Shown here one piece after another: positions 1,068 through 54,479 of a stretch of 64,000 nucleotides of DNA. Below the pieces are notes generated by a model, which was given only the letters and a program-made list of their open reading frames with translations, was not told the DNA's origin and made no database searches. The stretch comes from a virus (taxonomy: Duplodnaviria > Caudoviricetes): IMG/VR virus record IMGVR_UViG_3300033498_000048, positions 1 to 64,000 of that record; one strand, 5' to 3'. The translations under genes were made by a program, and so were the position numbers. Within the stretch, counting starts at the first letter, position 1. Each line of letters begins with the position of its first letter.

Positions 1068-1688
1068 ATGTTTAAAACGTTTAAAAGCTTTATAATGGAA
1101 GATGGTGAAGTATCAACAACGTCAAATATTGTTGGAGGTAATCCAATGTTGTTTAAAACAATAACAACAAGGAAGCCGTTAGTTGAAACTGTATATGATT
1201 ATGCAAGTTGCCAATTTACCTTAGATTATTATTTAACTGGGGTCATAAAGGAATATGCTAGACATTTAGTTAAGGAAATAGATTTGGGAGAAGATGGGTA
1301 TGTTGTTAATCCACACATTACAGTTTGCTATGGGTTAACACTGGACAAACCAATTGAATTGTTTGATTTATTGGAATCAGAATTAATACACCCAACATAT
1401 GTTGATATTCTGGATGTTGATATATTTGAATGTGATGACTACAATGTTCTAATATTACCAATTAAAAGTGAAAAACTAAACAAATTAAATCGAATCATAA
1501 ATGGAAACCTAGATGTTGTTGATACTGGATATGGAACATATAATCCACACATTACATTGGCATATTTAAAGAAAGATGTTGATTACACAAAATATACAAA
1601 CAGAAAAGACCTAACGCAATTTAATGTAAAGTTGGACAAATTCCAATTTAGTGACAAGTTAGGTACTATTACAAATTTTAATTACTAG
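1068..1688 (+). CDS. 2H phosphoesterase (T4 57B/Acb1-like) with capsid-targeting-like leader
   Basis: Two HxT motifs (NPHITVCYG, YNPHITLAY) and LILPIKSEKL resembling T4 57B; N-terminus MFKTFKSFIMED. Confidence 0.75.
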   Translation: MFKTFKSFIMEDGEVSTTSNIVGGNPMLFKTITTRKPLVETVYDYASCQFTLDYYLTGVIKEYARHLVKEIDLGEDGYVVNPHITVCYGLTLDKPIELFDLLESELIHPTYVDILDVDIFECDDYNVLILPIKSEKLNKLNRIINGNLDVVDTGYGTYNPHITLAYLKKDVDYTKYTNRKDLTQFNVKLDKFQFSDKLGTITNFNY

Positions 1689-1697
1689 GGGAATAAA

Positions 1698-2195
1698 ATG
1701 TTAAGTTATACCGAGTTTATACTGGAACGGTTAGATGCAGATGTAGAAAGGAATAAGTGGTTGGATCCAGATGATGACCCAAAATCAAAACAAACAAACG
1801 ATACCGTGAATTTTTCTGGAATTGAATTTGATGTTGAAATGGACAATGATGATATTTCTGGATTATATCTATCAGACGATACGAGACAAGTTCACAATTG
1901 GATTGATTATTTAGATGATAGTGCAATTGATGATATAACAAAGCTTGCTACTGGAAACAATCCAAAGGGAAAACTTCCACAACGATTTACAAATAAAGAT
2001 GATTTAGATTCAGTTGATGTTATGTTTCCAGATAATAAGGGAATTGAATTGTCCGTATATTACACCGAACCTGATAGTGATGGTGAATTTGAATTGGGTG
2101 GTTCTTGTGTGGATTCAAAATATGATATTGGTCAATGGTTTAACGAATATGCTGTTGAACTATTACACGATTTAGTTGCTAAAAAAGTAAGCTAA
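1698..2195 (+). CDS. acidic hypothetical protein, probable internal virion protein
   Basis: 165-aa ORF with GGGG RBS; N-terminus MLSYTEFILE resembles the T4 CTS MKTYQEFIAE. Confidence 0.65.
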   Translation: MLSYTEFILERLDADVERNKWLDPDDDPKSKQTNDTVNFSGIEFDVEMDNDDISGLYLSDDTRQVHNWIDYLDDSAIDDITKLATGNNPKGKLPQRFTNKDDLDSVDVMFPDNKGIELSVYYTEPDSDGEFELGGSCVDSKYDIGQWFNEYAVELLHDLVAKKVS

Positions 2196-2202
2196 CTTGA
2201 TT

Positions 2203-2241
2203 AAATAGTTGGAATATGGTGTTATTATATTCCAACTATTT
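2203..2241. terminator. hairpin terminator
   Basis: 15-bp inverted repeat AAATAGTTGGAATAT/ATATTCCAACTATTT just after the stop at 2195. Confidence 0.6.
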
Positions 2242-2614
2242 TGATACTTAATTACACAATCTAATGTGATAATCGTCACAATCATTTCCCAGATATTAAA
2301 TATCTATTATTACCAAGATACTTTTCAAACACACCACTTTGGACAAAGCCCTCCAACATCAATTTCAATTGGGATAACCTAATACGATTGTATCGTGTAG
2401 TGGTACATCAATTCGTTTTAAATTGTTCTTGTTTCCACCCATATTAAAAGCTTCTTCAACTTCAAACTTAGAAGCAGCTGGACGCCAATGTGCTTTAATT
2501 CCAGGTAATTCACGAGTTTTAATTTCCCATAATGATTCTGGTTTTTGGTGGTGTTTAATATCGTTATTCCAAATGTTATACATGGACATGGTAATAATCT
2601 CAGTTGTGGTTTAA

Positions 2615-2622
2615 TATAAATA
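2615..2622 (+). promoter_or_regulatory. T4-type late promoter TATAAATA
   Basis: Exact consensus upstream of ORF 2633. Confidence 0.6.
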
Positions 2623-2632
2623 CGTTATTTTA

Positions 2633-3250
2633 ATGGTGAATTATATGAAAGATATGCTTACATTTGCTACATTTTATTTAAATGAGGCTAGACAACAAAA
2701 CCTAGAATATTCTGAAAAAATGGCTAAAGACCAGATAGATAAAGTGATAGTGGAACTTGCGGGAACTCAAAGTGCTATTGCTACAAAACTGGCTAAAAAG
2801 TTTAAGGTTATTAAAGAAGCTGCTGCTAAATTGAAATCTCAAGAAGAAGAATTGAATGTGGAAGCTAAAGACTTAGTTTCCAATTTATTTGATGCTGAAG
2901 ATGTTGTATATACGCGAATAGTAAAAACTTGTTCACTAACTATTCAAGTATCAAAAGAATATCAACGTGAAACTACAAAAGTTGATACCGATGGGATTAT
3001 GGCTGACATATTAAAGTTAGCTCCAGAATTAGAAGATAAAATTAAAGAAATTGTTAAGGCTCGCACTAAAATAACAAAATCTAACGTGATGAGTGCTTTA
3101 ACGATTAAATCTGAATCAATCACATTGGACGAAGGTGTCTTAGATTCTATTAAGAAATTCTTTGTTGATTTGTTAAGTAAGTTCCAATTATGGGCTAAGT
3201 CTTTTGATACCAAACTCGATACTATTGAGAAACAATTGGCAGCTGCTTAA
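2633..3250 (+). CDS. helical hypothetical protein, probable internal virion protein
   Basis: 205-aa ORF; CTS-like MLTFATFYLNE near the N-terminus; late promoter upstream. Confidence 0.65.
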   Translation: MVNYMKDMLTFATFYLNEARQQNLEYSEKMAKDQIDKVIVELAGTQSAIATKLAKKFKVIKEAAAKLKSQEEELNVEAKDLVSNLFDAEDVVYTRIVKTCSLTIQVSKEYQRETTKVDTDGIMADILKLAPELEDKIKEIVKARTKITKSNVMSALTIKSESITLDEGVLDSIKKFFVDLLSKFQLWAKSFDTKLDTIEKQLAAA

Positions 3251-3527
3251 AAATGTGATAGTGGAAAACCTCATCATTATTTAAGGCTAATATTTCACCC
3301 CAATCAGTTCCAAATTCAATTAAATCACACTTAGTTAGAATAACAACATATAAGTCATTATCAATTAGTGGCTTATACGTTTCAATTATTTGATGATATG
3401 AATTGCAAATTCCATAATTCAATTTGTTGTCAATATTAAACCACAGTTGAAATTCGCTAGCTGATAACATCGGATATTCAGTTGTTAAATAGACTCCAAC
3501 ATCTAATTGTATTCCATCTAACATCAA
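3222..3527 (-). CDS. hypothetical protein
   Basis: 101-aa ORF abutting ORF 3524-3913. Confidence 0.55.
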   Translation of the reverse strand: MMLDGIQLDVGVYLTTEYPMLSASEFQLWFNIDNKLNYGICNSYHQIIETYKPLIDNDLYVVILTKCDLIEFGTDWGEILALNNDEVFHYHIFKQLPIVSQ

Positions 3528-3913
3528 TCAGCATCCGTTAGGCTTGGAATACTAATAACATATATTTTTTCACTATCAAATAACGAACAAACAAATACTT
3601 CGGTTTGTTCGTGTTTGTTGTTGAGTCTCAATTCAGTTGATAAAAAAGAATCAATTGATTCAAACAAAATGGAATCAGATTTTTTGAAACTAATATAATC
3701 CGTACTCATCATTGCTGTAATAAAACCACTTCCTTCAATAACCTCTACTTTAGTTTTATAACTTCGTTTATCTATCAGTCTTAATTTAAATTGTGTTTTC
3801 TTAACCAATCCATTTGATGTCTGCAATATTACAATAGAAGCATATTTGTTGTCTAGTAAAAATTGTTTACATTTTTCAGTACAGGTTGTGGTTAAACTTT
3901 TTGGAACAATCAT
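3524..3913 (-). CDS. hypothetical protein
   Basis: 129-aa ORF in a tight minus-strand run. Confidence 0.55.
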   Translation of the reverse strand: MIVPKSLTTTCTEKCKQFLLDNKYASIVILQTSNGLVKKTQFKLRLIDKRSYKTKVEVIEGSGFITAMMSTDYISFKKSDSILFESIDSFLSTELRLNNKHEQTEVFVCSLFDSEKIYVISIPSLTDAD

Positions 3914-3923
3914 ATTGATACCA

Positions 3924-4238
3924 TCATTTGAATAATTGAAGAAATTTAAAAAATTTAGACCATTCTAGCCTAGGCTTAAATACCAGTACAACTTCTTGTT
4001 TGTCAAATGCTAATTCCGTCACTACGAACCAGTCATCGGCTTGTTTTTTTGCAGCCTCAAAGGTTTGCTCTGAAACAACACAAGTAACTTTTCTAAACGA
4101 TGTGTTTAACCATTCGGCAATAACTGGGTCGTCTTTGTTCCATTTTAACGACATTAAATATCCAGCATGGAGACAAGAATTTACAGCGTGTCCAGTATCT
4201 ACCCAATCTTTTATTAAGATGTATGATTTTAATAACAT
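3924..4238 (-). CDS. peptidyl-tRNA hydrolase 2 (Pth2)-like protein
   Basis: 104 aa; pattern KSYILIKD..G.AVNSCLHA...W...FRKVTCVV matches the Pth2 family (K..I.V..D..G...Q..HA...W......K.V..V). Confidence 0.6.
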   Translation of the reverse strand: MLLKSYILIKDWVDTGHAVNSCLHAGYLMSLKWNKDDPVIAEWLNTSFRKVTCVVSEQTFEAAKKQADDWFVVTELAFDKQEVVLVFKPRLEWSKFFKFLQLFK

Positions 4239-4588
4239 TTAACTACCTTATGCGTATAACTTTTTTTAAGCTTTTTAATTTGTTCTTTGTGATAATCAAC
4301 TTTGTCGTAAATACTTAAATTATAAGCACGATTAGCATCATCTATATTTAAATGAAATGTTTTTAGAATGTCAACTGAACTAACGTCACCTAAGATAAAC
4401 GTAGCTAGTTCAACCTCCTTATTATGGTCCCGGATTTTAACCACTTGTCTGGATGAGTGTGTTGATTGTACAACGGTGATTACGAATTTAGCTGGAGGAA
4501 TACTAGCTATGTTACCAAACTCATCAAATAAGCACCACACATAAACCACATCACCAGTTTTTAACTTTAAAACATCATCTTTATTCAT
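4229..4588 (-). CDS. hypothetical protein
   Basis: 119-aa ORF overlapping the next gene's start. Confidence 0.6.
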   Translation of the reverse strand: MNKDDVLKLKTGDVVYVWCLFDEFGNIASIPPAKFVITVVQSTHSSRQVVKIRDHNKEVELATFILGDVSSVDILKTFHLNIDDANRAYNLSIYDKVDYHKEQIKKLKKSYTHKVVKCY

Positions 4589-4598
4589 TTTATTTACC

Positions 4599-5030
4599 TT
4601 AAATTGTTTCTATTTGAAATTCTTTATTCAGGATTAATAAACTGGTTTGTTTAGTAATAAAATGTCGATGTTTAATTACAACGTATGAATATGAATCTAA
4701 TAAATTAAGTGTAGAAACGAATATCGAATTTGCAAATGATATAATTTGTGGTGAACCTACAGAATGTGAAGCAATATCATATGCAACGCTATTAACATAC
4801 TCTGCTACTGAAGACACATATTCAAAACAATACCTAGGATTTATTGGAATTAATATACACTCTATTTTATCACTGTTATACTTACGACCTGAGCAACATA
4901 TATCATAAGATGATACAGAAACTTGTAAATTGTTAATATTCAAGTTTAATAACATTCTCTTAGTCTGTTCTATTCTTTCTACTGGAACAAACAATAAATT
5001 GATTCCGATACAAAATGCGTTGTTATACAT
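4599..5030 (-). CDS. hypothetical protein
   Basis: ATG at 5030 (MYNNAF...) overlaps the upstream stop by 8 nt; the longer 5222 call overlaps ORF 5023-5457. Confidence 0.55.
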   Translation of the reverse strand: MYNNAFCIGINLLFVPVERIEQTKRMLLNLNINNLQVSVSSYDICCSGRKYNSDKIECILIPINPRYCFEYVSSVAEYVNSVAYDIASHSVGSPQIISFANSIFVSTLNLLDSYSYVVIKHRHFITKQTSLLILNKEFQIETI

Positions 5031-5457
5031 TTTTATTCTCTCTATTTTTCCCGATGTGATAGCCGTTACACCATACGCATTTATAACAAGAAAAATGTAC
5101 TCCCTTCTTGTTTGACATTGAGTTGGCAGCCTTTGATGCTGATTCTTTAGTTGGATATGGTACTTTTGGTTTACCAGAATATACTGCAATGTGTGAGTTT
5201 TTGTGGAACATTCCCCACGCATTTCTAGTAATAAAGAAGTTGATTAATAACCGTTTTAATGGCAATTGGTCTTTGATGGCTAGGATTAAATTATGTATTA
5301 ACATTGTATTATCCGTTTTAAATGACATGGAATGGAACGGGGAATTTGTGATGTGGTACTTACTAAGATTCCCTAAACTTATTTGGACATTAACCCAAAC
5401 ACTTTTGTTAGATTGTATATTAAATTTTATACGTTTGCTGTACGTTCCATCATACAT
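5023..5457 (-). CDS. conserved phage protein with Zn-binding motif
   Basis: GKPKVPYPTKESA...YKCVWCNGYHIG (CxxC...H). Confidence 0.6.
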   Translation of the reverse strand: MYDGTYSKRIKFNIQSNKSVWVNVQISLGNLSKYHITNSPFHSMSFKTDNTMLIHNLILAIKDQLPLKRLLINFFITRNAWGMFHKNSHIAVYSGKPKVPYPTKESASKAANSMSNKKGVHFSCYKCVWCNGYHIGKNRENKNV

Positions 5458-5758
5458 TGGAACATTGTAGTTTTATATAGTTTACTAACTTAATAAATGC
5501 CTCCTAATTTACATTTACTTTTTTGTGTATAAAACTACTCAGTTTTCAATGCTTAAATATGTCATTTTACTAATTGGTTGTGGAAACTTTTAAAGTTATT
5601 GGCTTCTTTGTTTTTAATTCCATCTGTAACGTTGTCCACAAATCTGCTAATTGTTTGCGCGTTTTACAACACGAGGCAGCTGCGTGATATGTGGAAACAC
5701 CAATTCTAGTTGCTATAATTTCTAACTCGTTGCGTGTCATTGTATTATAATATTTTTA

Positions 5759-5944
5759 TCATTGAAATTGTTTAACGATATGGACTACATAATCATTGAT
5801 GACTTCTTTAACAAATTCTACTAAGTCATAACTTCGGTTTTTATAGACTTGTGGAATATAATCCCTTGCGTTTGCACTAGAGAATTTTTCACGTTCTAAT
5901 TTACCACCACGAAACAGGTTTACTTCACAAAAATCTTCATACAC
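5759..5944 (-). CDS. hypothetical protein
   Basis: 61-aa ORF with GAGG RBS. Confidence 0.45.
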   Translation of the reverse strand: MYEDFCEVNLFRGGKLEREKFSSANARDYIPQVYKNRSYDLVEFVKEVINDYVVHIVKQFQ

Positions 5945-5984
5945 AACATAATAACCCTCAAATTAACAATAAATTTTTCATAAA

Positions 5985-6080
5985 TGGTAGCTCGGTATGT
6001 TTGGATAAAACGTAATGACTCATTTCACACTGCTTAGTCGCGTACCAGCCGACTTGAGATGTCATTCTAAATTCAAGCTA
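5985..6080 (-). ncRNA. possible structured RNA with tRNA-like CCA end
   Basis: Minus strand: closing stem TAGCTTG/CGAGCTA then CCA; nested helices AATGAC/GTCATT and AGTCG/CGACT. Confidence 0.3.
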
Positions 6081-6156
6081 TTTCTGAATAAAAATAAAAG
6101 TTTGTCTCTATGGACAACTTGAATATATTAGCCTCCAATGACTGCTTAGAATGCAG

Positions 6157-6429
6157 TTATGGAAATAAATCTCCATATTCAAATCTAATAGCTTTGGCTT
6201 TCATAACCACACAGTCAGATATATTAGATTGTTTTTTGTGATTTGTAGTTAATTTATAAATCACACCACAGTTACATTTACAATGTAAATTATTTATTTC
6301 AACTGCAATCTGCCGTGGTACAGCATTTAATGAAAATCTATCTAAATTACATCTACCATCCTTGGTTTGAAAATCAACTTCTTTACCACATTCGTTACAG
6401 TCGAAAACTATACTATCAAACATACTCAT
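6157..6429 (-). CDS. hypothetical Zn-finger-like phage protein
   Basis: MFDSIVFDCNECGKEVDFQTK (CxxC) and a later CxC. Confidence 0.55.
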   Translation of the reverse strand: MSMFDSIVFDCNECGKEVDFQTKDGRCNLDRFSLNAVPRQIAVEINNLHCKCNCGVIYKLTTNHKKQSNISDCVVMKAKAIRFEYGDLFP

Positions 6430-6558
6430 TACAAATTTATCCTAGTCAATTATCATTTGAATTGTCTTTAATTTTTCAGCAGCTAAAGTTGAATCCGAAT
6501 CAAACTCCGCTCTAAGCTGAAACTCCTATCCCAAGCTCTTTCTGGATGAATATAAACT

Positions 6559-6593
6559 TTGTTAATATTGGTCAATTTGACCAATATTAACAA
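6559..6593. repeat. perfect 35-bp palindrome
   Basis: TTGTTAATATTGGTCAA-T-TTGACCAATATTAACAA, 17-bp arms and a 1-nt centre. Confidence 0.9.
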
Positions 6594-6785
6594 CTAAGGT
6601 AAAAAATCACTCTGCGTACGGAAAGCCTTTCTTTCTTCGGGTGAAAGTGAACTCAGATAATCTTTACCACTTCTGAAATATTCTTCCAGTTCTTCATCAG
6701 TCATTTGAATATCGGTTCTATCATTTTTCGTAATACAACTTTTCCAAGTAGTTATAAGAAACGATATGGATTTACTTATACCCAT
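6594..6785 (-). CDS. hypothetical protein
   Basis: 63-aa ORF coupled to the upstream ORF. Confidence 0.5.
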   Translation of the reverse strand: MGISKSISFLITTWKSCITKNDRTDIQMTDEELEEYFRSGKDYLSSLSPEERKAFRTQSDFLP

Positions 6786-6991
6786 TATAATTTCTCCGAA
6801 TCAATTATTGCTTGAATTGCCTTTAACTTTTCAGTATCTAAAGTTGTACCAGAATCAAATTCCGCATCTAATTTAATATTATGGTTCTTACCTAAAATCT
6901 TAACTATCTTATTAAAGGCTGCACACTTCCGTTGCTCTACTGTTTTTTGATGCTTAACATCTGCACGTTGTTTGGTCATAATAAAATCCAA
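6785..6991 (-). CDS. hypothetical protein
   Basis: 68-aa ORF. Confidence 0.5.
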   Translation of the reverse strand: MDFIMTKQRADVKHQKTVEQRKCAAFNKIVKILGKNHNIKLDAEFDSGTTLDTEKLKAIQAIIDSEKL

Positions 6992-7029
6992 TGTGGTTAA
7001 TTCAAGTTTTTAATTATACACAACCGACC

Positions 7030-7272
7030 CTAGTAAGTCAACACTAAATCAAGTTCTTGTTTTAATGTATGTCTTAACTCTTGACGAGTTTCGCCATCAT
7101 ATTTACGTTCATTTCCACATCCAATACAAGAACAGTTTTTTGGAGTGTTGTTTAATATTCCTAATCTTTTGGGGTTATTATTTCCACCCCAATATTGTTT
7201 ACGCTTAACCTTTAATCGTTCTATGTGATGTCTACGGATTGCCTTTTCGTGTTGTTCAATTGTTATGTCCAA
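7030..7272 (-). CDS. small basic Cys-containing hypothetical protein
   Basis: TPKNCSCIGCGNERK motif. Confidence 0.6.
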   Translation of the reverse strand: MDITIEQHEKAIRRHHIERLKVKRKQYWGGNNNPKRLGILNNTPKNCSCIGCGNERKYDGETRQELRHTLKQELDLVLTY

Positions 7273-7538
7273 TATTTTAACCTACCTTTATCAATAATAT
7301 CTGGTTCATAGTTTGAATCCAATTTGAACTTTCGCAATTCATTCTTGTGTTTTCTGCGCAATGGTCTTTCAGATGTTAAGTTTCTGAACCACGCTGGTTC
7401 AGGTTCTTTATATTTCACAGTAGAATTAGAGCCATCACGTTGACTCATTGTCTTTCCAACATCATAAGCATTAGTGCCAATTGAATGATTTACTTGGAAC
7501 CAAGTACCAGCAAATTTAATATAATCGTGATATTCCAA
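7263..7538 (-). CDS. small basic hypothetical protein
   Basis: PAWFRNLTSERPLRRK...YWT; 10-nt overlap with the next gene. Confidence 0.55.
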   Translation of the reverse strand: MEYHDYIKFAGTWFQVNHSIGTNAYDVGKTMSQRDGSNSTVKYKEPEPAWFRNLTSERPLRRKHKNELRKFKLDSNYEPDIIDKGRLKYWT

Positions 7539-7763
7539 TCTATTTCTATACGAACTAAAAACAACACCTTTCGGCGAAAAGTTCTTGACACAATTATACT
7601 CCTATTTCAAAGAAATGTGTTTTTGAATATGTCCAATAGCAACCTCGATGTTTTTGTCCAACTGGACAATATGGTACATCTCCAGACAAATGGTCATCTA
7701 ACTTTTTATTACAATGTTTACATCTCACAATTCTACTCATTGAAATCACGCTCAGGTAAGTGT

Positions 7764-7854
7764 TGGAGTTGGTATAGGGAATTGAACCCTACGGTCAAGC
7801 CTGTATCTAGTTTAATGACGATGGTTTTGCAGACCACTCGATACTAATACCAAC
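7764..7854 (-). tRNA. atypical tRNA-Cys(GCA): reduced D-arm, 29-nt variable region
   Basis: Acceptor GTTGGTA/TACCAAC, U73, CCA; anticodon arm GTGGT-CTGCAAA-ACCAT; T-arm TAGGG-TTCAATT-CCCTA. Confidence 0.7.
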
Positions 7855-7965
7855 ATTCTTTATTTAATAAAAATAACTTACGCTGTTTTTTATCATATTG
7901 CACATCCAACTTAATAAAACTGCATTGTCACTCAAAATGTTTAGTGATGTCAACTACTAAAGTAG

Positions 7966-8274: not shown

Positions 8275-8350
8275 TAATAAAAACAGTATTATAACTTAAA
8301 ATTTTTATTAATGTCAACTAAAATTATATTCGATATTTCAATAGGAATAT

Positions 8351-8433
8351 CGGAGAGCATCGGAATCGAACCGAAAGGTTTTACCCTCGACAGACTTAGC
8401 AGGTCGTCCCTAGTCCAACTAGGATTACTCTCC
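8351..8433 (-). tRNA. tRNA-Ser(GCT)
   Basis: Acceptor GGAGAGT/GCTCTCC, G73, loop CTGCTAA, long variable arm, T-loop TTCGATT. Confidence 0.85.
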
Positions 8434-31797: not shown

Positions 31798-32388
31798 TCA
31801 CAAGTCGTAAACACGCCTTCCTTTAGCTATCGCATCTTTTGCCATTCTACCTAGGTAGTTACAGGCTTCGTCCACTGGAGCCTCAATGGGTTCTTTAAAT
31901 ATGAACGGTCTACCATTTACCTTAGTATTGAACATTCCAGTTTTTCCGAACACAGGATTAGCAAACTTAATAACTTTGTTCATTCCAGGATAACCACTAT
32001 CATTAGTTCCAATTAACAATCCTTCTGTACCACCTTTTGGAACATACAACACTGAATCTTGGTCATACTTATTTCCCAACTTTAGTATCTCAGACTTCAA
32101 ATCACCCGTATCTTTTAAATCAACAACAAATAATGATTCTTCAGAAACTTCAACGGCATCTTCAGTACCATAATCTTCAATATAAGCACCTTTTACAGCA
32201 GTTACACCGAATTTCTTTTCTAGTGTAGATTTTAACTCACGGTTTAATCCTTGGTTAATAGCTTTGGTATTTTTACCACGGAACGCTGTTATGAATCCAG
32301 TATCGTGGTCTTGCATTGCTTGCCATGTGCGACTTAAAGAAGCCTCACTGATTACATTACTTTTATAAAATTCATCAAACGATAACAT
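31798..32388 (-). CDS. conserved T4-like phage protein with CTS-like leader
   Basis: MLSFDEFYK..ISEASLSR...GFITAFRG...EESLFV...KYDQDSVL; TATAAATA at 32412-32419 upstream. Confidence 0.7.
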   Translation of the reverse strand: MLSFDEFYKSNVISEASLSRTWQAMQDHDTGFITAFRGKNTKAINQGLNRELKSTLEKKFGVTAVKGAYIEDYGTEDAVEVSEESLFVVDLKDTGDLKSEILKLGNKYDQDSVLYVPKGGTEGLLIGTNDSGYPGMNKVIKFANPVFGKTGMFNTKVNGRPFIFKEPIEAPVDEACNYLGRMAKDAIAKGRRVYDL

Positions 32389-32411: not shown

Positions 32412-32419
32412 TATTTATA
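32412..32419 (-). promoter_or_regulatory. T4-type late promoter TATAAATA
   Basis: Exact consensus 23 nt upstream of ATG 32388. Confidence 0.6.
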
Positions 32420-48856: not shown

Positions 48857-49456
48857 ATGTTGAGCTTTCAACAATATAAAAATAGACCGTTATATGAAAG
48901 TATATCTAAAGGTGAACCGATAATCGTAGTTGACATCCAACCTGCATATGAAAAATTTTGCGATGATGTTATTTCAAATGACGCATTCATACAAATGATA
49001 AACAACCAAGAAAACATATTGTGGTTTTTTAATGGAGATTTTGATGGATTAACCAATGATAACATAAACACATTAAAGTCGTGGTTATTAGAATATGGAA
49101 TCACAAAGAAGACATTAAAACGAATTACATTTAAAGAAAAGTCTTATGGGTTTCTTAGGGGGTGGATGGATAATGATGTTCCATATAATATCATTATTAA
49201 GGTTATACGAGAAATGTATATAAAAAAGAAATATAGCTCAGATGAATTAGATTTAACTAAAGTGTTAAATGACGATGAACTTGAATTAGTTCCACAATAT
49301 GATTCAATTGGATTAACTGATATAGCTATTGCACAATTAAAGAAATATTCTGGATTTATTTGTGGTGGTGGAGCAGAAGAATGTTTGAGGGAAATTGAAT
49401 TACTAATGTCTGCTTTTAATTTCAAATGTAAACGATTACAAGAATATATCTATTAA
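48857..49456 (+). CDS. isochorismatase-like (cysteine hydrolase) protein with CTS-like leader
   Basis: IIVVDIQPAY, F.EKSYG, ICGGGAEECL; N-terminus MLSFQQY...LYES; AGGAG RBS. Confidence 0.6.
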   Translation: MLSFQQYKNRPLYESISKGEPIIVVDIQPAYEKFCDDVISNDAFIQMINNQENILWFFNGDFDGLTNDNINTLKSWLLEYGITKKTLKRITFKEKSYGFLRGWMDNDVPYNIIIKVIREMYIKKKYSSDELDLTKVLNDDELELVPQYDSIGLTDIAIAQLKKYSGFICGGGAEECLREIELLMSAFNFKCKRLQEYIY

Positions 49457-49457
49457 T

Positions 49458-51329
49458 ATGGCAGACCAATATTACAATAATGTTCAATTTGCATTAAGTT
49501 TAAATGGAGACTTCTTAGATTGGAGTAAACATAACAGAAGTGTAACAATTGATTCTGGAATTATAATGTCAAATAGTGTTATTAAATATGGTTCATATTC
49601 AGCCTATTTTCCAGCTGCTGTTAGTAGAACTATGTTGATAGATTACATTGATTGGACACCAAATACCGATGATTATACTATAGAGTTTTGGATAAATGCA
49701 ATAAAAGCAAGTTCACCAGCAAATGTCTTTTTAATTGGACAATATAGAGATTCCAATAACTTTTGGAAACTATACCTAAATTCAATTAATAATGATGTAA
49801 TATTGACATCATCCTCTGGAACCACCATTACAGCATCAAATTCATTTTTAAACAATTGGAATACATGGAATCATGTTGTAATGGTTCGGTATAATTCAAT
49901 TACCTCAATTTACATTAATGGTGCTGTAGTATTAACTGGAAACTTTACTATACCTACAATCAATGAACCAATTTTAATTGGAGGTTTACAACATTCAGGG
50001 ACTAATGAGTTCTTTGTTGGATATTTAAGTGATATTAGATTCACTAAAGGGATAGCAAGATATACATCTAATTTTAATGTCCCAACACAATTATTAGAAC
50101 AATCATCATTAAAAACAGTTTTGATTCAAACTATAGATTCAATTAGTTGCATTAATCCACAATGTAACTTTGATGTTTATATTGTAGGCTCTGGTAAAGT
50201 TAAATCATTTGTTAGTAATAGTTATGGGAACATTGTAATTAAAGTTCCAGAGGATGTTGTTGTCGAATTAACTGCGTATGCTACTGGATATAAAAAAGCC
50301 AGATTAGAGTTTAAATCATGTCCTGATGTCGTTACATTGAACTTAAATAGAATAGTTAATTCAAATTCTGATACAATACAACAACTATTACCATTAATAT
50401 ATTTTTCATGTGAAAATGATTCCAATGGTATATTAGCCAATTCTGGAATTACATCTGGACAAATGTCATTATTGAATACCAATTATATTACAAAATTAAA
50501 TAGTTTGATTTATGGAATTTATTACCAATTATCAGATACAATTGAACTGAATCCGATTAATAATGGTTGGACTGGTTTAAATGGATTAACTGATAATACA
50601 ACAGGCTACCAAAATATCACAACGACTGGAGGTAGCTATTGTTTTTGGGTAAAACCTACCAAATCAATTGTAATTTATAACGAGTCAATAACTGGAAATT
50701 ATGCTGACAATTTAGACCAAAGATTTTTAATTACTCCAGAATACAGTATTAACAACGTGTTTTATGGAATATCAATAGGCATTAATGGCATTCAATTTTA
50801 TATGCGAAAGGGAACAACCTTTTCTCCAGTATTAACTTGGATTAACGATTTGTCTAATTGGAATCATATTGTATTAACGATTAATTCAAATGGAGTTCCA
50901 ACATTATATATGAATGGAATATTCATTAAATCGACAAATTATGTTCCAGTTGGTGATAGGTATCTGGGATTAAACATTGGAACAGATACCAGTGGAAATA
51001 GACATTCATTTGCTGGCTCATTTACTGATATGTGTTTATTCGGTTATGATGTTAGTATTCCAAACATTAATAGAATAATGAATAGTCAATTGAAATATAA
51101 AATACAGGGAAAGGTTGTAGATTCAAATGGTAATGTTAAACCAAGTATAATTAGAGCTTATTCACATGAATCTGGAGAGTTAATTGGTGAATGTACAACA
51201 GATATTGATGGGGATTATGTCTTGATAACAAGTTCAAATGTTGCTAGTTATGTTACCTGTTTGCAATTAGATTGTGATGATATTTCAAGTGAAGGAATGA
51301 TTTACACTAATGTCATTCCTTCGTTATAA
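49458..51329 (+). CDS. LamG/ConA-like lectin-domain protein, probable tail-associated adhesin
   Basis: Two LamG-like units (DYTIEFWI...WNHVVMVR...SIYING...F.GYLSDIRFTKGIARY; YCFWVK...WNHIVLT...LYMNG) and a C-terminal TTDIDGDY carboxypeptidase-regulatory-like segment. Confidence 0.75.
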   Translation: MADQYYNNVQFALSLNGDFLDWSKHNRSVTIDSGIIMSNSVIKYGSYSAYFPAAVSRTMLIDYIDWTPNTDDYTIEFWINAIKASSPANVFLIGQYRDSNNFWKLYLNSINNDVILTSSSGTTITASNSFLNNWNTWNHVVMVRYNSITSIYINGAVVLTGNFTIPTINEPILIGGLQHSGTNEFFVGYLSDIRFTKGIARYTSNFNVPTQLLEQSSLKTVLIQTIDSISCINPQCNFDVYIVGSGKVKSFVSNSYGNIVIKVPEDVVVELTAYATGYKKARLEFKSCPDVVTLNLNRIVNSNSDTIQQLLPLIYFSCENDSNGILANSGITSGQMSLLNTNYITKLNSLIYGIYYQLSDTIELNPINNGWTGLNGLTDNTTGYQNITTTGGSYCFWVKPTKSIVIYNESITGNYADNLDQRFLITPEYSINNVFYGISIGINGIQFYMRKGTTFSPVLTWINDLSNWNHIVLTINSNGVPTLYMNGIFIKSTNYVPVGDRYLGLNIGTDTSGNRHSFAGSFTDMCLFGYDVSIPNINRIMNSQLKYKIQGKVVDSNGNVKPSIIRAYSHESGELIGECTTDIDGDYVLITSSNVASYVTCLQLDCDDISSEGMIYTNVIPSL

Positions 51330-51461: not shown

Positions 51462-51980
51462 TTACCATTTGTTATCACCTTGAACATAACCGATTGCATT
51501 AATAATTTCATCCCATGAAACTGCTCTGTTTATTCCCAAATCATAACCATAATCTTCTGTTTCATGGGTTGAAATTGAATAATGTATCACTCCATCCTCA
51601 GTGATTAACGCTGTCAATATTCCTGAGTCCTTTGATTTAAAAGTTATGTTGAAATAACCAGTGTCTGCATCAATAGAAATACAAGGGTCATACTTTGAAA
51701 TTGTTGGAACCAAATAAAGAAAGTTCTTTGCGGATGCGTTTGAAATTTCTTTGAAGTGTTTGATTTTCTTAAAAGCCTCATTATAATTGGCTATAACCAC
51801 ATCGAATCGTACAAGGGTATTTTCCCATTCCTCTGTACTATGTTCCCAAGTATATAACATAGCCTCTCGATGAAAATCAATATTTAATTGTGTGATATAT
51901 TCTATCCACTTTTGTTCTAATTCGGTACACTTTGTCACCACGATAACCTCGATGTGTGATATTTTATGGATGCCTGTCAA
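51462..51980 (-). CDS. hypothetical protein
   Basis: 172-aa ORF, 4-nt coupling with HD-Pnk. Confidence 0.55.
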   Translation of the reverse strand: MTGIHKISHIEVIVVTKCTELEQKWIEYITQLNIDFHREAMLYTWEHSTEEWENTLVRFDVVIANYNEAFKKIKHFKEISNASAKNFLYLVPTISKYDPCISIDADTGYFNITFKSKDSGILTALITEDGVIHYSISTHETEDYGYDLGINRAVSWDEIINAIGYVQGDNKW

Positions 51981-53209
51981 TTAACAACGATTACAATTTC
52001 ATCAAATTCACCTAATGATGGTAATTGCATTTTCCAATATTGTGAATTAATAACTTCTACTGGAACATTCTTATCATGTCGAGTTGATTGTCTATCAACA
52101 TTGCTTTTGAATGCTGTTAGGAATACAACTCCAATAGTGTGATATTTTCTATTTTTCAACTCATTTAAATGATATTGGCGTGTGTTTTTAATGGTGTTGG
52201 TGTTATCAACAATCATATCGGAATTTAGTCTTGCAATACTTAATAATCGTTCTTTACACTTTGCTTTAAAATGCGAGTCTTTTGTGGATTTGTAAAAGCT
52301 AGTTGCATAATCATTTCCATACAACTCGATTCTCAAGTCGTCCATTGAAAATGTTGGTAAATTGCCTAATTGATTTCTAAATGTTGTTTTTCCAGAACCA
52401 GAAGCTCCAATCATAAAATAAGCCTTTGGAAACTTATTATTTCTAGGGCTATTAAAATAATCCAATTTGGCTAAATATTGCGATTTAAAATTAGCACACC
52501 ATTCCTCGGCTTTTTTATTATTTTGTGTATAATCATCACTAATCCTACCATAATTATCTGATAACAAAATATCTAAAAACACATCAACATTACCTATGAA
52601 TTTAGATATAGTCCAACACATATCACTAATACTGTTTTTGTTTGTAATGTTCCAAGGTTTATGTTGTTCAATTAGCCAAGCTATTACAAACAATAATTCA
52701 TTAGTAAATAATGGCTTTAATTGTGGACTTGCTAATATGAAATCAATGAATATTCTTGATGATTGCAATTCATGTCCAGTAAATGCAAAATACGTTCCAC
52801 GTTCAATTGAATATTTTTCAATTTTAGATTTTGGTTTTCCAACATCGTGAAATAATAATACTACCGAAACAATAAAGTCATTAATATTCCAATTATTAGA
52901 ACATAGTATCGAATATTCTTCCAGTGCCATTTTAGTATGAATGGCAACATTAGACTCACGATGGAATGGAGATTGTTCAACACAATTTTCCATATCATTC
53001 CACAATTTTGATACAACTAATGATTGTTGTATTGTATCAAACATTTCTTTATAATTCATATTAATCCCATTTAAAATCATCACATGGTTTATGGTACTCT
53101 CCGATATATTCACAACATCCAAAATAGAATTGCCTACAGTTTTTACAACAGATTGTAGTTTGTATTGTTCGTTTTGCATATTCTTCATTGTGATTTGCCA
53201 TATTTGCAA
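51977..53209 (-). CDS. HD-Pnk: HD phosphoesterase fused to a P-loop polynucleotide kinase (RNA end-healing)
   Basis: SPFHRESNVAIHT, LFHDVGKP, LIEQH, DNYGR; C-terminal IGASGSGKTT, SMDDLR, IVDNTN...R. Confidence 0.8.
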   Translation of the reverse strand: MQIWQITMKNMQNEQYKLQSVVKTVGNSILDVVNISESTINHVMILNGINMNYKEMFDTIQQSLVVSKLWNDMENCVEQSPFHRESNVAIHTKMALEEYSILCSNNWNINDFIVSVVLLFHDVGKPKSKIEKYSIERGTYFAFTGHELQSSRIFIDFILASPQLKPLFTNELLFVIAWLIEQHKPWNITNKNSISDMCWTISKFIGNVDVFLDILLSDNYGRISDDYTQNNKKAEEWCANFKSQYLAKLDYFNSPRNNKFPKAYFMIGASGSGKTTFRNQLGNLPTFSMDDLRIELYGNDYATSFYKSTKDSHFKAKCKERLLSIARLNSDMIVDNTNTIKNTRQYHLNELKNRKYHTIGVVFLTAFKSNVDRQSTRHDKNVPVEVINSQYWKMQLPSLGEFDEIVIVVN

Positions 53210-53287
53210 ATGTAGTACCAGTCCTAACAGTAGAATGTATTTGCCTAGTAAATTCGTGTATGTTTTTCTTATCTGTCTTTCTTGCCA

Positions 53288-53560
53288 TTATCTTCTTCCC
53301 AGTGTCAATTTAAATGATTTTCTACCATCGGTAATTTCATTAAACTTGTAGATTATATTGGAATCAGAAACAAGTGTTTTAAAATATTCCATAAAAATAC
53401 GATGTGGTGAATTTCTCAAATATCGTGTACCTTGAATTATATCACCATTTTTCATAAACAACACAAAGTCTTTATCTCCTTTAAATATTCTAATGGATTC
53501 AACATCACACAAATTAACTTGGTCAACATTATCTGTTGTGTCGTTTGTGAATTGAAACAT
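53288..53560 (-). CDS. hypothetical protein
   Basis: 90-aa ORF with GGAG RBS. Confidence 0.6.
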   Translation of the reverse strand: MFQFTNDTTDNVDQVNLCDVESIRIFKGDKDFVLFMKNGDIIQGTRYLRNSPHRIFMEYFKTLVSDSNIIYKFNEITDGRKSFKLTLGRR

Positions 53561-53612
53561 TTACTATCTCCAATGGATTAAAAGCATATTATACAACAAA
53601 CAGGAGGTTAAA

Positions 53613-53939
53613 TCAAACAATAGAAACATCGTCATCTTCTATTACATAGTTAATTCGTTTGACTTTTGGTTTTACTGTTCCCAACTCGATTATCGAACAC
53701 CCATAAGGTCTTGTTTGCTTCGATGGTACAACTGATAGGTCTACAGTAGCATCTAATATTTTTCCAATTGCTTGTCGCGGACTATTAGCTTCAACCATAT
53801 GTTCATTCAAAAAACGTTCTGATTCACCATCTGCGAGGTCATCACCAACCGTTTCATCAAACATTATCAAGTACCAAGCCATACTATTTCTCCAATTGAT
53901 TAAAAACATATTATACATTAAACCGAATTTTAAAGTCAA
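53613..53939 (-). CDS. hypothetical protein
   Basis: Real start is probably ATG 53883 (MAWYLI), behind a TTGACT/TATAAT promoter. Confidence 0.55.
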   Translation of the reverse strand: MTLKFGLMYNMFLINWRNSMAWYLIMFDETVGDDLADGESERFLNEHMVEANSPRQAIGKILDATVDLSVVPSKQTRPYGCSIIELGTVKPKVKRINYVIEDDDVSIV

Positions 53940-53949
53940 CCTATTTCAA

Positions 53950-54291
53950 TCAATCCCTAGTAGTTTCAACCCGTATTGAATCTAATAACTCGACTGGAAC
54001 CAATTGCTCAATAATATCACCGATTGCTGAATCATCAAATGTTGCTCCAGTATAAATAGTCAATATTAATTTCGTGTCTAATTCTATTGTGATGTGCCAA
54101 ATATCATATCCATATAATAGAACATTGTCATAAAAACATAATAAAAAATCATGCAATTTGTGTAATTCTATATAATGCAGTATTTCTGTGGTATCTCCAA
54201 AATAATCATATTTTAATGGAAGTTTTGGGTCATAATCGGTATTCATAAAATTGTAATTCCTTGTTAAAAGTGTTATAGTAGTGTAACACAT
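53950..54291 (-). CDS. hypothetical protein
   Basis: 113-aa ORF. Confidence 0.5.
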   Translation of the reverse strand: MCYTTITLLTRNYNFMNTDYDPKLPLKYDYFGDTTEILHYIELHKLHDFLLCFYDNVLLYGYDIWHITIELDTKLILTIYTGATFDDSAIGDIIEQLVPVELLDSIRVETTRD

Positions 54292-54314
54292 TTTATTTAT
54301 TAAAAGCCATTAAT

Positions 54315-54479
54315 ATGTTATCTTTTAAACAATACTTAGCCGAATCAAAAAAGTCTGGTAATCGCATTCAGCACTTTCAAATTAACACTCGTGGAAAAGA
54401 TTTTGTGGTTGGAGACATACATGGAGCATTTAATCACTTATTAACCGAGTGCTATTTTACAATTATACAAATCAATTAA
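54315..54479 (+). pseudogene. truncated metallophosphoesterase (lambda-phosphatase/PphA-like) with CTS-like leader
   Basis: My translation: MLSFKQYLAESKKSGNRIQHFQINTRGKDFVVGDIHGAFNHLL...* (54 aa); only the first GDxHG motif remains. Confidence 0.7.

What the first reader, a model, noticed from the sequence alone, without database searches (positions are those of the whole stretch)
1068..54479. T4 capsid-targeting-like leaders plus late promoters mark a set of probably injected enzymes
Established: T4 internal proteins use an N-terminal capsid-targeting sequence (MKTYQEFIAE), cleaved after Glu by the prohead protease. Seen: similar leaders on 1068 (MFKTFKSFIMED), 1698 (MLSYTEFILE), 2633 (MLTFATFYLNE), 32388 (MLSFDEFY..ISE), 48857 (MLSFQQY..LYE) and 54315 (MLSFKQYLAE). 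Exact TATAAATA lies upstream of 1068, 2633 and 32388, and GATAAATA upstream of 48857; most early genes instead have TTGAC-N17-TATAAT. Inference: a portable packaging tag has been grafted onto diverse cargo (2H phosphoesterase, cysteine hydrolase, phosphatase) for delivery with the DNA.
Basis: partly seen in the sequence, partly recalled or inferred. Interest (0 to 1): 0.72.

Follow-up and report, generated by a model that had tools for sequence, protein, structure and literature searches.

The report
T4-type capsid-loading tags on enzymes
An uncultured 306-kb T4-like phage starts about twenty unrelated genes, several of them likely counter-defence enzymes, with the short peptide that phage T4 uses to load proteins into its head, so it probably delivers ready-made enzymes together with its DNA, although no virion of this phage has been examined.

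Summary
All six leaders are in the sequence, with three corrections. The third motif starts at 2654, not 2633. The fourth lies on the minus strand. The sixth sits on a dead 54-residue phosphatase stub.

The window is the first 64 kb of a 305,782-bp T4-like phage. The genome encodes a gp21-type prohead protease, a gp22-type scaffold and a gp55 late sigma factor. About 20-23 N-termini in the genome match the leader pattern, against about 2 expected from shuffles. The conserved positions are aromatic residues at 4 and 7 and [LI]-x-E at 8-10. These are the positions that mutagenesis of T4 IPIII showed to control capsid targeting and cleavage.

TATAAATA lies 30-39 nt upstream of three of the window's genes.

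The cargo in the window is:
- an Acb1-like 2H phosphodiesterase;
- a SAM-lyase-family protein;
- an isochorismatase-fold hydrolase;
- a member of a large phage family whose Agrobacterium-phage homolog was found in purified virions;
- one orphan.

Packaging, cleavage and injection are inferred, not shown. One homolog was not detected in a Campylobacter phage virion proteome.

This is a natural expansion of the known T4 capsid-targeting system. The scan has already noted it elsewhere in this genome and in other T4-like phages.

The parts
1038..1045 (+). TATAAATA late-promoter box, 30 nt upstream of the 1068 gene
   Evidence: The genome encodes a gp55 late sigma homolog.
1068..1688 (+). Leader MFKTFKSFIME, then a linker of about 35 residues, then an Acb1-like 2H phosphodiesterase (206 aa)
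   Evidence: Pfam Acb1 PF23474 at 1e-6 (29 bits, cut-off 27) and 2_5_RNA_ligase2. Both H-x-T motifs are invariant in the alignment with T4 57B. The N-terminal ~45 residues are an extension absent from T4 57B.
1698..2195 (+). Leader MLSYTEFILE (an exact 10-mer) on an acidic orphan protein (165 aa; mature pI 4.1). It starts 10 nt after the 1068 gene and is probably co-transcribed with it.
   Evidence: No Pfam, PHROG or Atlas relative was found.
2615..2622 (+). TATAAATA late-promoter box upstream of the 2654 gene
2654..3250 (+). Leader MLTFATFYLNE on a member of a large phage protein family (198 aa from this ATG). The frame also opens at 2633 and 2645.
   Evidence: 505 cluster representatives at E <= 1e-3. 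113 of the top 150 have [LIV]-x-E-x-R with the Glu at median residue 12. The homolog Atu_ph07 gp475 was detected in virions.
31798..32388 (-). Leader MLSFDEFYKSNVISE on a SAM-lyase-family protein (196 aa)
   Evidence: Pfam PF23780 at 1.8e-15. The top 7 Foldseek PDB hits of the model are T3 SAM lyase and Svi3-3. 15 of 16 metagenomic homologs and 4 cultured-phage homologs keep a leader ending in Glu just before the conserved S-L-S-R.
32412..32419 (-). TATAAATA box 31 nt upstream of the SAM-lyase-like gene. It overlaps a possible TTGACT-N19-TATAAA sigma-70-like site.
48857..49456 (+). Leader MLSFQQYKNRPLYE on an isochorismatase-fold (cysteine hydrolase / nicotinamidase-like) protein (199 aa)
   Evidence: AlphaFold2 pLDDT 90.4, with the first 20 residues poorly ordered. 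The top 28 VIA-align matches are all isochorismatase-family proteins, Z 7.6-10.3. D26, K95 and C176 are invariant in 21 homologs, and 16 of the 21 keep [LI]-x-E at the boundary.
49458..51329 (+). 623-aa laminin-G / concanavalin-like protein that starts 2 nt after the 48857 gene. It is a structural-type partner in the same plus-strand island.
   Evidence: Pfam Laminin_G_3 at 3.7e-22; PHROG baseplate-wedge families
54315..54479 (+). Leader MLSFKQYLAE on a 54-aa remnant of a NinI-like Ser/Thr phosphatase (GDIHG motif only). Probably a dead gene.
   Evidence: phrog_246 at 2.6e-6 over residues 5-44. No continuation in any frame. No Shine-Dalgarno box and no TATAAATA within 70 nt.

Best explanation
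The leaders are capsid targeting sequences of the T4 type. The steps below are marked as shown or inferred.

Late expression (shown for the sequence features, inferred for timing):
- Three of the window's genes carry a TATAAATA box, and the genome encodes a gp55 late sigma homolog.
- 1698 follows the 1068 gene by 10 nt and would share its late promoter (inferred from spacing).
- 48857 sits in a plus-strand island with a structural-type gene.

Loading into the prohead (inferred):
- The tagged proteins join the scaffolding core of the prohead through the N-terminal peptide.
- The aromatic residues at positions 4 and 7 would be the address.
- The scaffold protein itself carries six copies of Y-x-x-Y-[VLA], so the tag may copy the scaffold's own interaction motif.

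Cleavage (inferred):
- The gp21-type prohead protease cuts after the Glu of [LI]-x-E.
- This frees the mature protein inside the head, where it stays with the DNA.

Delivery and function (inferred):
- The proteins are ejected into the next host.
- The window's cargo suggests ready-made counter-defence or takeover enzymes that act before any phage gene is transcribed.
- A SAM lyase would starve SAM-dependent restriction and BREX-type systems.
- An Acb1-like phosphodiesterase would destroy cyclic-nucleotide alarm signals.
- The substrate of the isochorismatase-fold amidohydrolase is unknown.

What is shown: the motif, its statistics, the promoters, the protease, scaffold and sigma genes, and the cargo families. 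What is inferred: binding, cleavage, packaging, ejection and the anti-defence roles.
For: 1. The motif is real and enriched: 19-20 N-termini against about 2 in shuffles and 3 of 1413 internal Met positions.

2. The conserved positions are F/Y at 4, F/Y at 7, L/I at 8 and E at 10 or a few residues later. In T4 IPIII, residues 4 and 7 govern capsid targeting and residues 8 and 10 govern processing (review PMC9026906). T4 ipII and ipIII read MKTYQEFIAE, and ipI reads MKTFKEFTSTTTPVSTITE.

3. The machinery is present:
- Peptidase_S77 protease.
- T4_CASP scaffold with 20 [LIV]-x-E sites, 5.8 per 100 aa against 1.44 genome-wide.
- Major capsid protein with ...FLNE|V at residue 43, like T4 gp23.
- gp55 homolog.

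4. Late promoters are associated with leader genes (p = 1.4e-5). In the window most leader genes sit in plus-strand islands inside a minus-strand early region.

5. The tag is modular:
- It lies outside the fold (pLDDT about 50-67 for residues 1-20).
- It uses varied codons.
- It is the same style on unrelated cargo within this genome.
- Homologs of the same cargo in other phages have other leader styles that end at the same [LI]-x-E column.
- One homolog has no leader (P0039).

6. Atu_ph07 gp475, a homolog of the 2654 protein, was found in purified virions with 14 unique peptides and 39.5% coverage. It was most abundant in a gel slice where 14-kDa proteins run, although its predicted mass is 31.7 kDa (PMC6102473 Table S5).

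7. Precedent: T4 Ip1-3 are injected inhibitors of GmrSD type IV restriction enzymes and share only the leader (PMC12373910). The T4 CTS also loads foreign enzymes (PMC9026906).
Against: - No virion, N-terminus or expression timing is known for this uncultured phage.
- The SAM-lyase-like homolog of Campylobacter phage IBB_35 (gene 5-9, 24,190 Da) is not among the 38 virion proteins reported. That survey also missed several known structural proteins (PMC3322345).
- Atu_ph07 gp475 has no CTS-like leader itself. Its virion preparation was PEG-purified and also contained replication proteins.
- Only 8 of 23 leader genes have TATAAATA close by.
- 48857 has no clear promoter.
- 32388 may also be read from an overlapping sigma-70-like site.
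- The loose core pattern gives false positives. The 63132 gene starts MKEFRKF as part of a conserved domain, and T4 57B starts MMEFKDF.
- Several leaders depart from the 10-residue spacing.
- No CTS-like leaders were seen in the 17 coding sequences read in the S-PM2 structural region.
Confidence: 0.65

Rival explanations
1. The leaders do target the proteins to the prohead core. However, the proteins act only in head assembly, as accessory core or scaffold components that are degraded or stay inert. They are not delivered as active enzymes.
For: A 269-aa leader-bearing gene sits directly upstream of the protease, where T4 has its core genes 67 and 68. The 2654 family is mostly helical and widespread, like a structural component.
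Against: The catalytic signatures are conserved: both H-x-T motifs of the 2H enzyme, invariant D/K/C in the hydrolase family, and a SAM-lyase fold and Pfam match. Such conservation would not be expected in a mere filler. T4 internal proteins are ejected and act in the host.
Confidence: 0.12
2. The leader is a propeptide for timed activation or turnover by the prohead protease, or another N-terminal signal such as one for expression or folding. Under this reading the proteins act inside the producing cell and are not packaged.
For: The [LI]-x-E boundary is better conserved across homologs than the aromatic pair. Only 8 of 113 leaders in the 2654 family have aromatic-x-x-aromatic. The IBB_35 homolog was not detected in virions.
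Against: The T4 protease is active only inside the assembled prohead (established T4 biology, reviews), so a substrate has to be in the prohead to be cut. Within this genome the aromatic pair at positions 4 and 7 is nearly invariant. These are the targeting positions in T4, not the processing positions.
Confidence: 0.12
3. The shared N-terminus is a by-product of AT-rich codon bias at gene starts, of chance, or of a mobile DNA cassette copied in front of genes.
For: The genome is 31% G+C, so F, K, L, N, I and Y codons are common. The loose core pattern occurs about 10 times in shuffles.
Against: The strict pattern occurs 19 times against 1.8 +/- 1.3 in shuffles that keep each N-terminus's composition. 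Synonymous codons vary at every position and mean nucleotide identity is 51%. The motif is linked to late promoters.
Confidence: 0.03

Closest known systems
Capsid targeting sequence (CTS) of phage T4 internal proteins IPI, IPII and IPIII (Mullaney and Black 1996; reviews PMC3012670, PMC9026906; Ip1-3 as injected GmrSD inhibitors, PMC12373910)
   Same: - An N-terminal peptide of 10-19 residues with aromatic residues at 4 and 7 and [LI]-x-E at the cut site.
- A gp21-type protease and a gp22-type scaffold in the same genome.
- Cargo proteins that share nothing but the leader.
- Expected co-injection with the DNA and a counter-defence role.
   Different: - About 20 tagged genes instead of 3.
- The house style is M-L-[ST]-F rather than M-K-T-Y.
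- The tagged genes are scattered over 300 kb rather than placed in two hot spots.
- The cargo includes recognisable enzymes (SAM lyase family, 2H phosphodiesterase, isochorismatase fold, kinase-like, GNAT) rather than small stoichiometric inhibitors.
- Nothing has been shown experimentally.
T4 Alt ADP-ribosyltransferase, a head-packaged enzyme trimmed by gp21 at both ends (PMC9026906, PMC5694885)
   Same: An enzyme that is carried in the head, processed by the prohead protease and ejected to act on the host at once.
   Different: According to the review, Alt has propeptides at both termini. I did not read the Alt sequence here. The proteins in this window carry the short IP-type tag at the N-terminus only.
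Phage T3 SAM lyase (gene 0.3) and Svi3-3 (PDB 7ock, 8bb1, 6zm9)
   Same: The 32388 protein matches Pfam PF23780, and its model's best PDB matches are these enzymes.
   Different: - T3 makes its enzyme as an early gene product after entry (established knowledge, not tested here).
- Here the gene has a late promoter and a cleavable capsid-targeting leader.
- The protein has an extra N-terminal helix and a C-terminal region of about 60 residues.
- A sequence profile of the family did not reach the solved SAM lyases.
Ejection (E) proteins of giant phages such as SPN3US and phiKZ, cut by a T4-like prohead protease (PMC5694885, PMC7411985)
   Same: A large protein payload inside the head, processed by a related protease after Glu.
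   Different: I did not compare those phages' propeptides with these leaders. The head genes here are closest to those of T4-like cyanophages.

Membership tests
T4-type capsid targeting sequence / internal protein system | Short propeptide at the extreme N-terminus of otherwise unrelated proteins | tested here: met
   Six in the window and about 20-23 in the genome. Their cargo falls into different Pfam or PHROG families or has none. For 2654 the true start codon is uncertain.
T4-type capsid targeting sequence / internal protein system | Aromatic residues at positions 4 and 7 (the targeting determinants in IPIII) | tested here: met
   After registering on the aromatic pair, the first position is F in 20 and Y in 3 of the 23 leaders, and the second is F in 16 and Y in 7. 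The first aromatic is exactly at residue 4 in 17 of the 23 leaders; in the others the motif is shifted by 1-3 residues. The determinants are taken from PMC9026906.
T4-type capsid targeting sequence / internal protein system | [LI] at P3 and Glu at P1 of the cleavage site (positions 8 and 10 in IPIII) | tested here: met
   All six window leaders have [LI]-x-E within 15 residues. Nine of 23 leaders in the genome have Glu exactly at position 10. Others have longer linkers, like T4 IPI.
T4-type capsid targeting sequence / internal protein system | gp21-type prohead protease and gp22-type scaffolding core encoded by the same phage | tested here: met
   PF03420 at 4.9e-39; PF25623 at 9.7e-23; the scaffold is rich in [LIV]-x-E.
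T4-type capsid targeting sequence / internal protein system | Protein present in the mature virion with its N-terminus starting after the Glu | not testable with these tools
   The phage is uncultured. Homolog data are mixed. Atu_ph07 gp475 was detected in virions. IBB_35 gene 5-9 was not detected among 38 virion proteins.
T4-type capsid targeting sequence / internal protein system | Ejection into the host with the DNA | not testable with these tools
   Needs infection experiments.
SAM lyase family (PF23780; T3 SAMase, Svi3-3) | Family profile match above the curated cut-off, and the fold | tested here: met
   57.5 bits against a cut-off of 28. The top 7 Foldseek PDB hits are 7ock, 6zm9, 6znb and 8bb1, with E from 2e-4 to 2e-3. 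The model pLDDT is only 73 and the TM-scores are 0.29-0.55.
SAM lyase family (PF23780; T3 SAMase, Svi3-3) | Catalytic residues and SAM cleavage activity | not tested
   Invariant Y69, E71, Q110, D111 and S112 exist in the alignment. They were not mapped onto the solved active site.
Acb1 / 2H phosphoesterase superfamily | Two H-x-T/S motifs and a family profile match | tested here: met
   H83-x-T85 and H161-x-T163 are invariant. Acb1 scores 29.0 bits against a cut-off of 27, and 2_5_RNA_ligase2 scores 27.3 against 27. Both are marginal.
Acb1 / 2H phosphoesterase superfamily | Cleavage of cyclic oligonucleotide signals, as opposed to another 2H activity | not testable with these tools
   The profile search that hit solved Acb1 structures included T4 57B in the query alignment. 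It is therefore not independent evidence.
Isochorismatase-like cysteine hydrolases (nicotinamidase, carbamoylsarcosine amidase) | Fold | tested here: met
   The top 28 VIA-align matches are all from this family, with Z 7.6-10.3, rmsd about 3 A and 113-130 residues aligned. Foldseek alone was weak: E 9e-3 to cysteine hydrolase 8rkz. No Pfam match was found.
Isochorismatase-like cysteine hydrolases (nicotinamidase, carbamoylsarcosine amidase) | Asp-Lys-Cys catalytic triad | tested here: inconclusive
   D26, K95 and C176 are invariant in 21 homologs and occur in the expected order. They were not superposed on a solved active site.
Lambda NinI-type Ser/Thr phosphatase (54315) | Complete metallophosphatase domain with all metal-binding motifs | tested here: not met
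   Only 54 residues with the GDIHG motif. All three forward frames downstream are full of stops.

The most novel reading that the evidence does not exclude
T4-like phages well outside the T-evens routinely deliver ready-made catalytic counter-defence enzymes inside the capsid. Candidates here are a SAM lyase, a cyclic-nucleotide phosphodiesterase, an amidohydrolase, kinases and an acetyltransferase.

The address label is a copy of a repeat in each phage's own scaffold protein (here Y-x-x-Y-[VLA], six copies). It therefore co-evolves with the head and differs in style between phage lineages.

If this is true, the injected proteome of uncultured phages could be read from sequence alone. Whole protein families with a conserved [LI]-x-E boundary, such as the SAM-lyase-like family and the 2654 family of 505 clusters, would be virion cargo.
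Probability: 0.35. Interest if true: 0.75.

Novelty: new variant of a known kind. Interest (0 to 1): 0.55.

Why it matters
Injected proteins are a phage's first move against host immunity, and they act before any phage gene is expressed. In T4 the three known ones are small inhibitors of one class of restriction enzyme.

If a short, recognisable tag marks some twenty proteins in one marine phage, including enzymes that destroy SAM or cyclic-nucleotide signals, two things follow.
- The range of defences that can be disarmed on entry is much wider than thought.
- The injected set of uncultured phages becomes predictable from sequence.

The conserved [LI]-x-E boundary in two widespread protein families gives concrete candidates to test in cultured phages. 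Examples are Paraglaciecola phage PANV1 gp48 and Agrobacterium phage Atu_ph07 gp475.

The idea itself was foreseen in T4 reviews. This scan has also seen the pattern in several other T4-like genomes, so this is an extension of known biology and not a surprise in kind.

Tried and rejected
- **Near-identical DNA in cultured phages.** No match was found for 1000-9000.
- **Relatives of the 1698 and 2654 proteins in viral contigs.** The pattern scan found none. The Atlas gave nothing usable for either.
- **The 48857 protein.** It has no tblastn match in cultured phages and no Pfam or PHROG family. Foldseek alone was inconclusive.
- **SAM-lyase-like family against solved chains.** The sequence profile reached none of them.
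- **Protease with leader.** A predicted complex of the prohead protease with the first 60 residues of the SAM-lyase-like protein gave no verdict. I do not count it either way.
- **T4 gp67 and gp68.** I had recalled that they carry the CTS. Reading the T4 record showed they do not, so I dropped that argument.
- **Cyanophage virion proteomes.**
  - I tried to test the tag against the S-SM1, S-PM2 and Syn9 data (PMC3037559 Table S8).
  - The 17 coding sequences I read in the S-PM2 structural region show no such leaders.
- **CP220 virion gel.** It lists only major bands.
- **DNA-cassette rival.** Rejected by codon variety.
- **GTGCTAACTCA upstream of 48857 and 282059.**
  - I considered it as a special promoter.
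  - It occurs 41 times on both strands.
  - It appears to belong to the 66-68-bp palindrome family already noted in this genome; I did not test this.

Full report
**What the window is**

The window is the first 64 kb of a 305,782-bp virus record with direct terminal repeats and about 31% G+C. The genome encodes several T4-type head and late-transcription genes:
- a T4 gp21-type prohead protease (Pfam Peptidase_S77, E 4.9e-39);
- a gp22-type scaffolding protein (PF25623, E 9.7e-23);
- a homolog of the gp55 late sigma factor (49% identical to S-PM2 gp55).

The protease is closest, at 50-58% identity, to those of T4-like cyanophages and marine viruses. No cultured phage is close at the DNA level. 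This is therefore an uncultured T4-like jumbo phage.

**The observation**

All six leaders are present:
- 1068(+) MFKTFKSFIME
- 1698(+) MLSYTEFILE
- 2654(+) MLTFATFYLNE
- 32388(-) MLSFDEFYKSNVISE
- 48857(+) MLSFQQYKNRPLYE
- 54315(+) MLSFKQYLAE

Three corrections apply.
- The third motif starts at 2654. The frame also opens at 2633 and 2645, and a GGTGA box favours 2645, so the tag may sit three residues in from the N-terminus.
- The fourth gene is on the minus strand.
- The sixth frame is only 54 residues long.

**Is it more than chance?**

I laid down the whole genome and made crude gene calls, 456 in all.
- A strict pattern (Met, 1-3 residues, aromatic, two residues, aromatic, then [LIVFM]-x-E within a few residues) fits 19-20 N-termini.
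- The same pattern fits 3 of 1413 internal Met positions.
- It fits 1.8 +/- 1.3 N-termini (maximum 8) in 1000 shuffles that keep the composition of each N-terminus.
- With a slightly looser reading, about 23 genes carry the tag.
- The leader is written with varied synonymous codons. Leu uses TTA, TTG, CTT and CTA; Ser uses six codons; mean nucleotide identity over 30 nt is 51%. It is therefore selected at the protein level and is not a copied DNA cassette.

**The conserved positions match the functional positions in T4**

I read the T4 record. ipII and ipIII start MKTYQEFIAE followed by Ala, and ipI starts MKTFKEFTSTTTPVSTITE followed by Ala. A review of the T4 work reports that suppressor analysis of the IPIII tag placed capsid targeting mainly at residues 4 and 7, and processing at residues 8 and 10 (PMC9026906).

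In this phage:
- after registering on the aromatic pair, both aromatic positions are F or Y in all 23 leaders; the first aromatic is exactly at residue 4 in 17 of them;
- position 8 is mostly L or I;
- Glu is at position 10 in nine leaders, and a few residues further on in most of the others, as in T4 IPI.

This is the strongest single argument that the peptide does here what it does in T4.

**The protease's taste can be inferred from its certain substrates**
- The scaffold protein has 20 [LIV]-x-E sites in 344 residues, 5.8 per 100 against 1.44 genome-wide.
- The major capsid protein has ...ERFLNE followed by Val at residue 43, the counterpart of the T4 gp23 cut.
- The scaffold also holds six copies of Y-x-x-Y-[VLA] between residues 65 and 161, several of them followed by x-E. 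The genome-wide rate predicts 0.8 copies (Poisson P about 2e-4).

The tag thus resembles a repeat of the scaffold itself. This suggests, but does not show, that the tag enters the core by copying the scaffold's own contacts. Notes on other genomes in this scan had reported the same kind of resemblance. I tested it here independently.

**Timing**
- TATAAATA occurs only 45 times on both strands of the genome, and 9 times in the window against 16 +/- 4 expected. The motif is depleted overall.
- Of the 45 sites, 27 lie within 70 nt upstream of a start codon on the same strand. Many of the downstream genes are structural: capsid, scaffold and a PAAR-like protein.
- 8 of 23 leader genes have such a box, against 19 of 433 other genes (Fisher p = 1.4e-5).
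- In the window the boxes lie 30, 39 and 31 nt before 1068, 2654 and 32388.
- 1698 follows the 1068 gene by 10 nt and should share its transcript.
- 48857 has only a GATAAATA 110 nt upstream, which is weak. It is, however, followed after 2 nt by a 623-residue laminin-G-type protein with baseplate-family PHROG hits. Both form a plus-strand island in a minus-strand region.
- 25 of 27 sigma-70-like sites in the window are on the minus strand.
- The box before 32388 overlaps a possible TTGACT-N19-TATAAA site, so that gene may be read both early and late.

**The cargo in the window**
- **1068.** A 2H phosphodiesterase. It has marginal Pfam matches to Acb1 (29.0 bits, cut-off 27) and to the 2'-5' RNA ligase family. 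Both H-x-T motifs are invariant. The N-terminal ~45 residues are absent from T4 57B.
- **32388.**
  - It matches the SAM lyase family PF23780 at 1.8e-15.
  - Its AlphaFold2 model (pLDDT 73) has T3 SAM lyase and Svi3-3 as its seven best PDB matches.
- **48857.**
  - It has no family by sequence, but it folds with pLDDT 90.
  - Its 28 best matches in an exhaustive structural comparison are all isochorismatase-family hydrolases, Z 7.6-10.3.
  - D26, K95 and C176 are invariant in 21 homologs. This is the expected catalytic triad, but I did not superpose it.
- **1698.** An acidic orphan with a mature pI of 4.1.
- **2654.** It belongs to a large family (see below).
- **54315.** A remnant: 44 residues of a NinI-like phosphatase after the tag, with no continuation, no ribosome-binding site and no promoter.

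Elsewhere in the genome the tag sits on:
- two T7 gp0.7-like kinase paralogs;
- a GNAT acetyltransferase;
- a weak ADP-ribosyltransferase match;
- a DUF5856 protein;
- a 530-residue ATPase-like protein;
- a 269-residue protein just upstream of the protease.

**Evidence from homologs that the tag is a separable address**

SAM-lyase-like family:
- 15 of 16 metagenomic homologs have a variable leader that ends in Glu immediately before the conserved S-L-S-R.
- Four cultured phages show the same arrangement: Paraglaciecola PANV1 gp48 (MKTFSEFLGE), Microcystis Mel-JY01 (MQFKQYILGE), Campylobacter CP220 gp189 and Alishewanella Slickus01.

48857 family:
- 16 of 21 homologs keep [LI]-x-E at one alignment column.
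- One homolog starts directly at the domain with no leader.

2654 family:
- An exhaustive search found 505 cluster representatives.
- 113 of the top 150 have [LIV]-x-E-x-R with the Glu at median residue 12. P3 is L or I in 105 and P1' is Ala in 77.
- Only 8 of those leaders have the aromatic pair. Many read M-K-L-x-D-L-F-E instead.

The same cargo therefore carries different leader styles in different phages, while unrelated cargo within one phage shares one style. That is what an address label matched to each phage's own head would look like.

**Experimental anchors from the literature**
- **Positive.**
  - Atu_ph07 gp475 is a homolog of the 2654 protein (tblastn 2e-13 over 95% of the query).
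  - It is in the published virion proteome with 14 unique peptides and 39.5% coverage.
  - It is most abundant in gel slice 11, where 14-kDa proteins run, although its predicted mass is 31.7 kDa. This hints at processing (PMC6102473 Table S5).
  - Caveats: gp475 has no CTS-like leader itself, and that preparation also held replication proteins.
- **Negative or neutral.**
  - The IBB_35 homolog of the SAM-lyase-like protein is gene 5-9 (24,190 Da).
  - It is not among the 38 virion proteins reported.
  - The survey missed several known structural proteins, and three neighbouring genes were detected.

**What is known and what is new**

Already known:
- T-even phages carry diverse internal proteins that share only the tag (PMC3012670).
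- The tag loads foreign enzymes into T4 heads.
- Ip1, Ip2 and Ip3 are injected inhibitors of distinct GmrSD enzymes (PMC12373910; PMC9391042).
- The review already suggests that the CTS is a general way for T4-like phages to load various proteins.

New here:
- the scale, about twenty tagged genes;
- the distance from the T-evens;
- the nature of the cargo, which includes recognisable enzymes with counter-defence potential;
- the finding that two widespread protein families keep a gp21-type cut site at their N-terminal boundary.

I found no paper describing a packaged SAM lyase.

The scan had already reported the same phenomenon in another window of this genome (e1-5321539) and in other T4-like genomes. 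My analysis agrees with those notes. It adds the homolog alignments, the virion-proteome checks, the scaffold repeat and the finding that the phosphatase is dead.

**Verdict**
- The mechanism is most likely the T4 one, with a confidence of about 0.65 for packaging and cleavage and less for the specific anti-defence roles.
- It is a new variant of a known system, and its interest is moderate.

Noticed in passing
window 54315-54479 (+): A tagged NinI-like phosphatase has decayed to a 54-residue stub that keeps the leader and the GDIHG motif. Minus-strand genes occupy the space where the rest should be. This points to turnover of tagged cargo genes.
   Followed up: yes
G000 198544-199578 (-), outside the window: The scaffold (gp22 homolog) carries six copies of Y-x-x-Y-[VLA] at residues 65, 87, 105, 120, 142 and 157, several followed by x-E. 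They resemble the core of the leader. T4 gp22 has one such site (AYINYV). S-PM2 gp22 has KFEEFASE near its N-terminus.
   Followed up: partly
window 38349-38634 and 40 other places in the genome: The 11-mer GTGCTAACTCA occurs 41 times on both strands. Four copies are spaced 95 bp apart at 38349-38634, and copies lie upstream of 48857 and 282059. It appears to belong to the 66-68-bp palindrome family that other notes on this genome describe.
   Followed up: no
proteins P0066, P0088, P0113, P0120 (homologs of the 2654 protein): Some members of the 2654 family are 450-865 residues long. They have the ~190-residue family domain at the N-terminus and varied C-terminal extensions. One carries a NUDIX domain (P0066). 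The family domain may itself act as a carrier for different cargo.
   Followed up: partly
window 32412-32450 (-): The late box before the SAM-lyase-like gene overlaps a possible sigma-70-like promoter (TTGACT, 19 nt, TATAAA). The gene may therefore be made both early and late.
   Followed up: no
window 3-482 (+): The open frame at the very start of the window contains an internal direct repeat: about 30 residues, beginning ELSNRF and ending AIVNRNV, occur twice about 65 residues apart. It lies near the genome end, which has terminal repeats.
   Followed up: no
window 51977-53209 (-): By eye, a 410-residue protein combines an HD-type motif (HDVGKP) with a P-loop (GASGSGKT). It may be an RNA- or nucleotide-repair type enzyme. 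No tool was run on it.
   Followed up: no
L008 (T4 record) 11953-12411 (-): T4 57B (Acb1) starts MMEFKDF. This looks like the aromatic pair of a CTS but has no [LI]-x-E after it. It shows that the loose pattern alone gives false positives.
   Followed up: partly
Campylobacter phage IBB_35 contig 5 (L021 and PMC3322345 tables): The SAM-lyase-like gene 5-9 was not detected in virions. Genes 5-10, 5-12 and 5-13, which lie next to it on the opposite strand, were detected.
   Followed up: partly
G000 192615-194824 (-), outside the window: A late-promoter operon 3 kb from the head genes holds three tagged genes in a row (175, 158 and 228 residues; the last is kinase-like). It looks like the counterpart of a T4 internal-protein locus.
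   Followed up: partly
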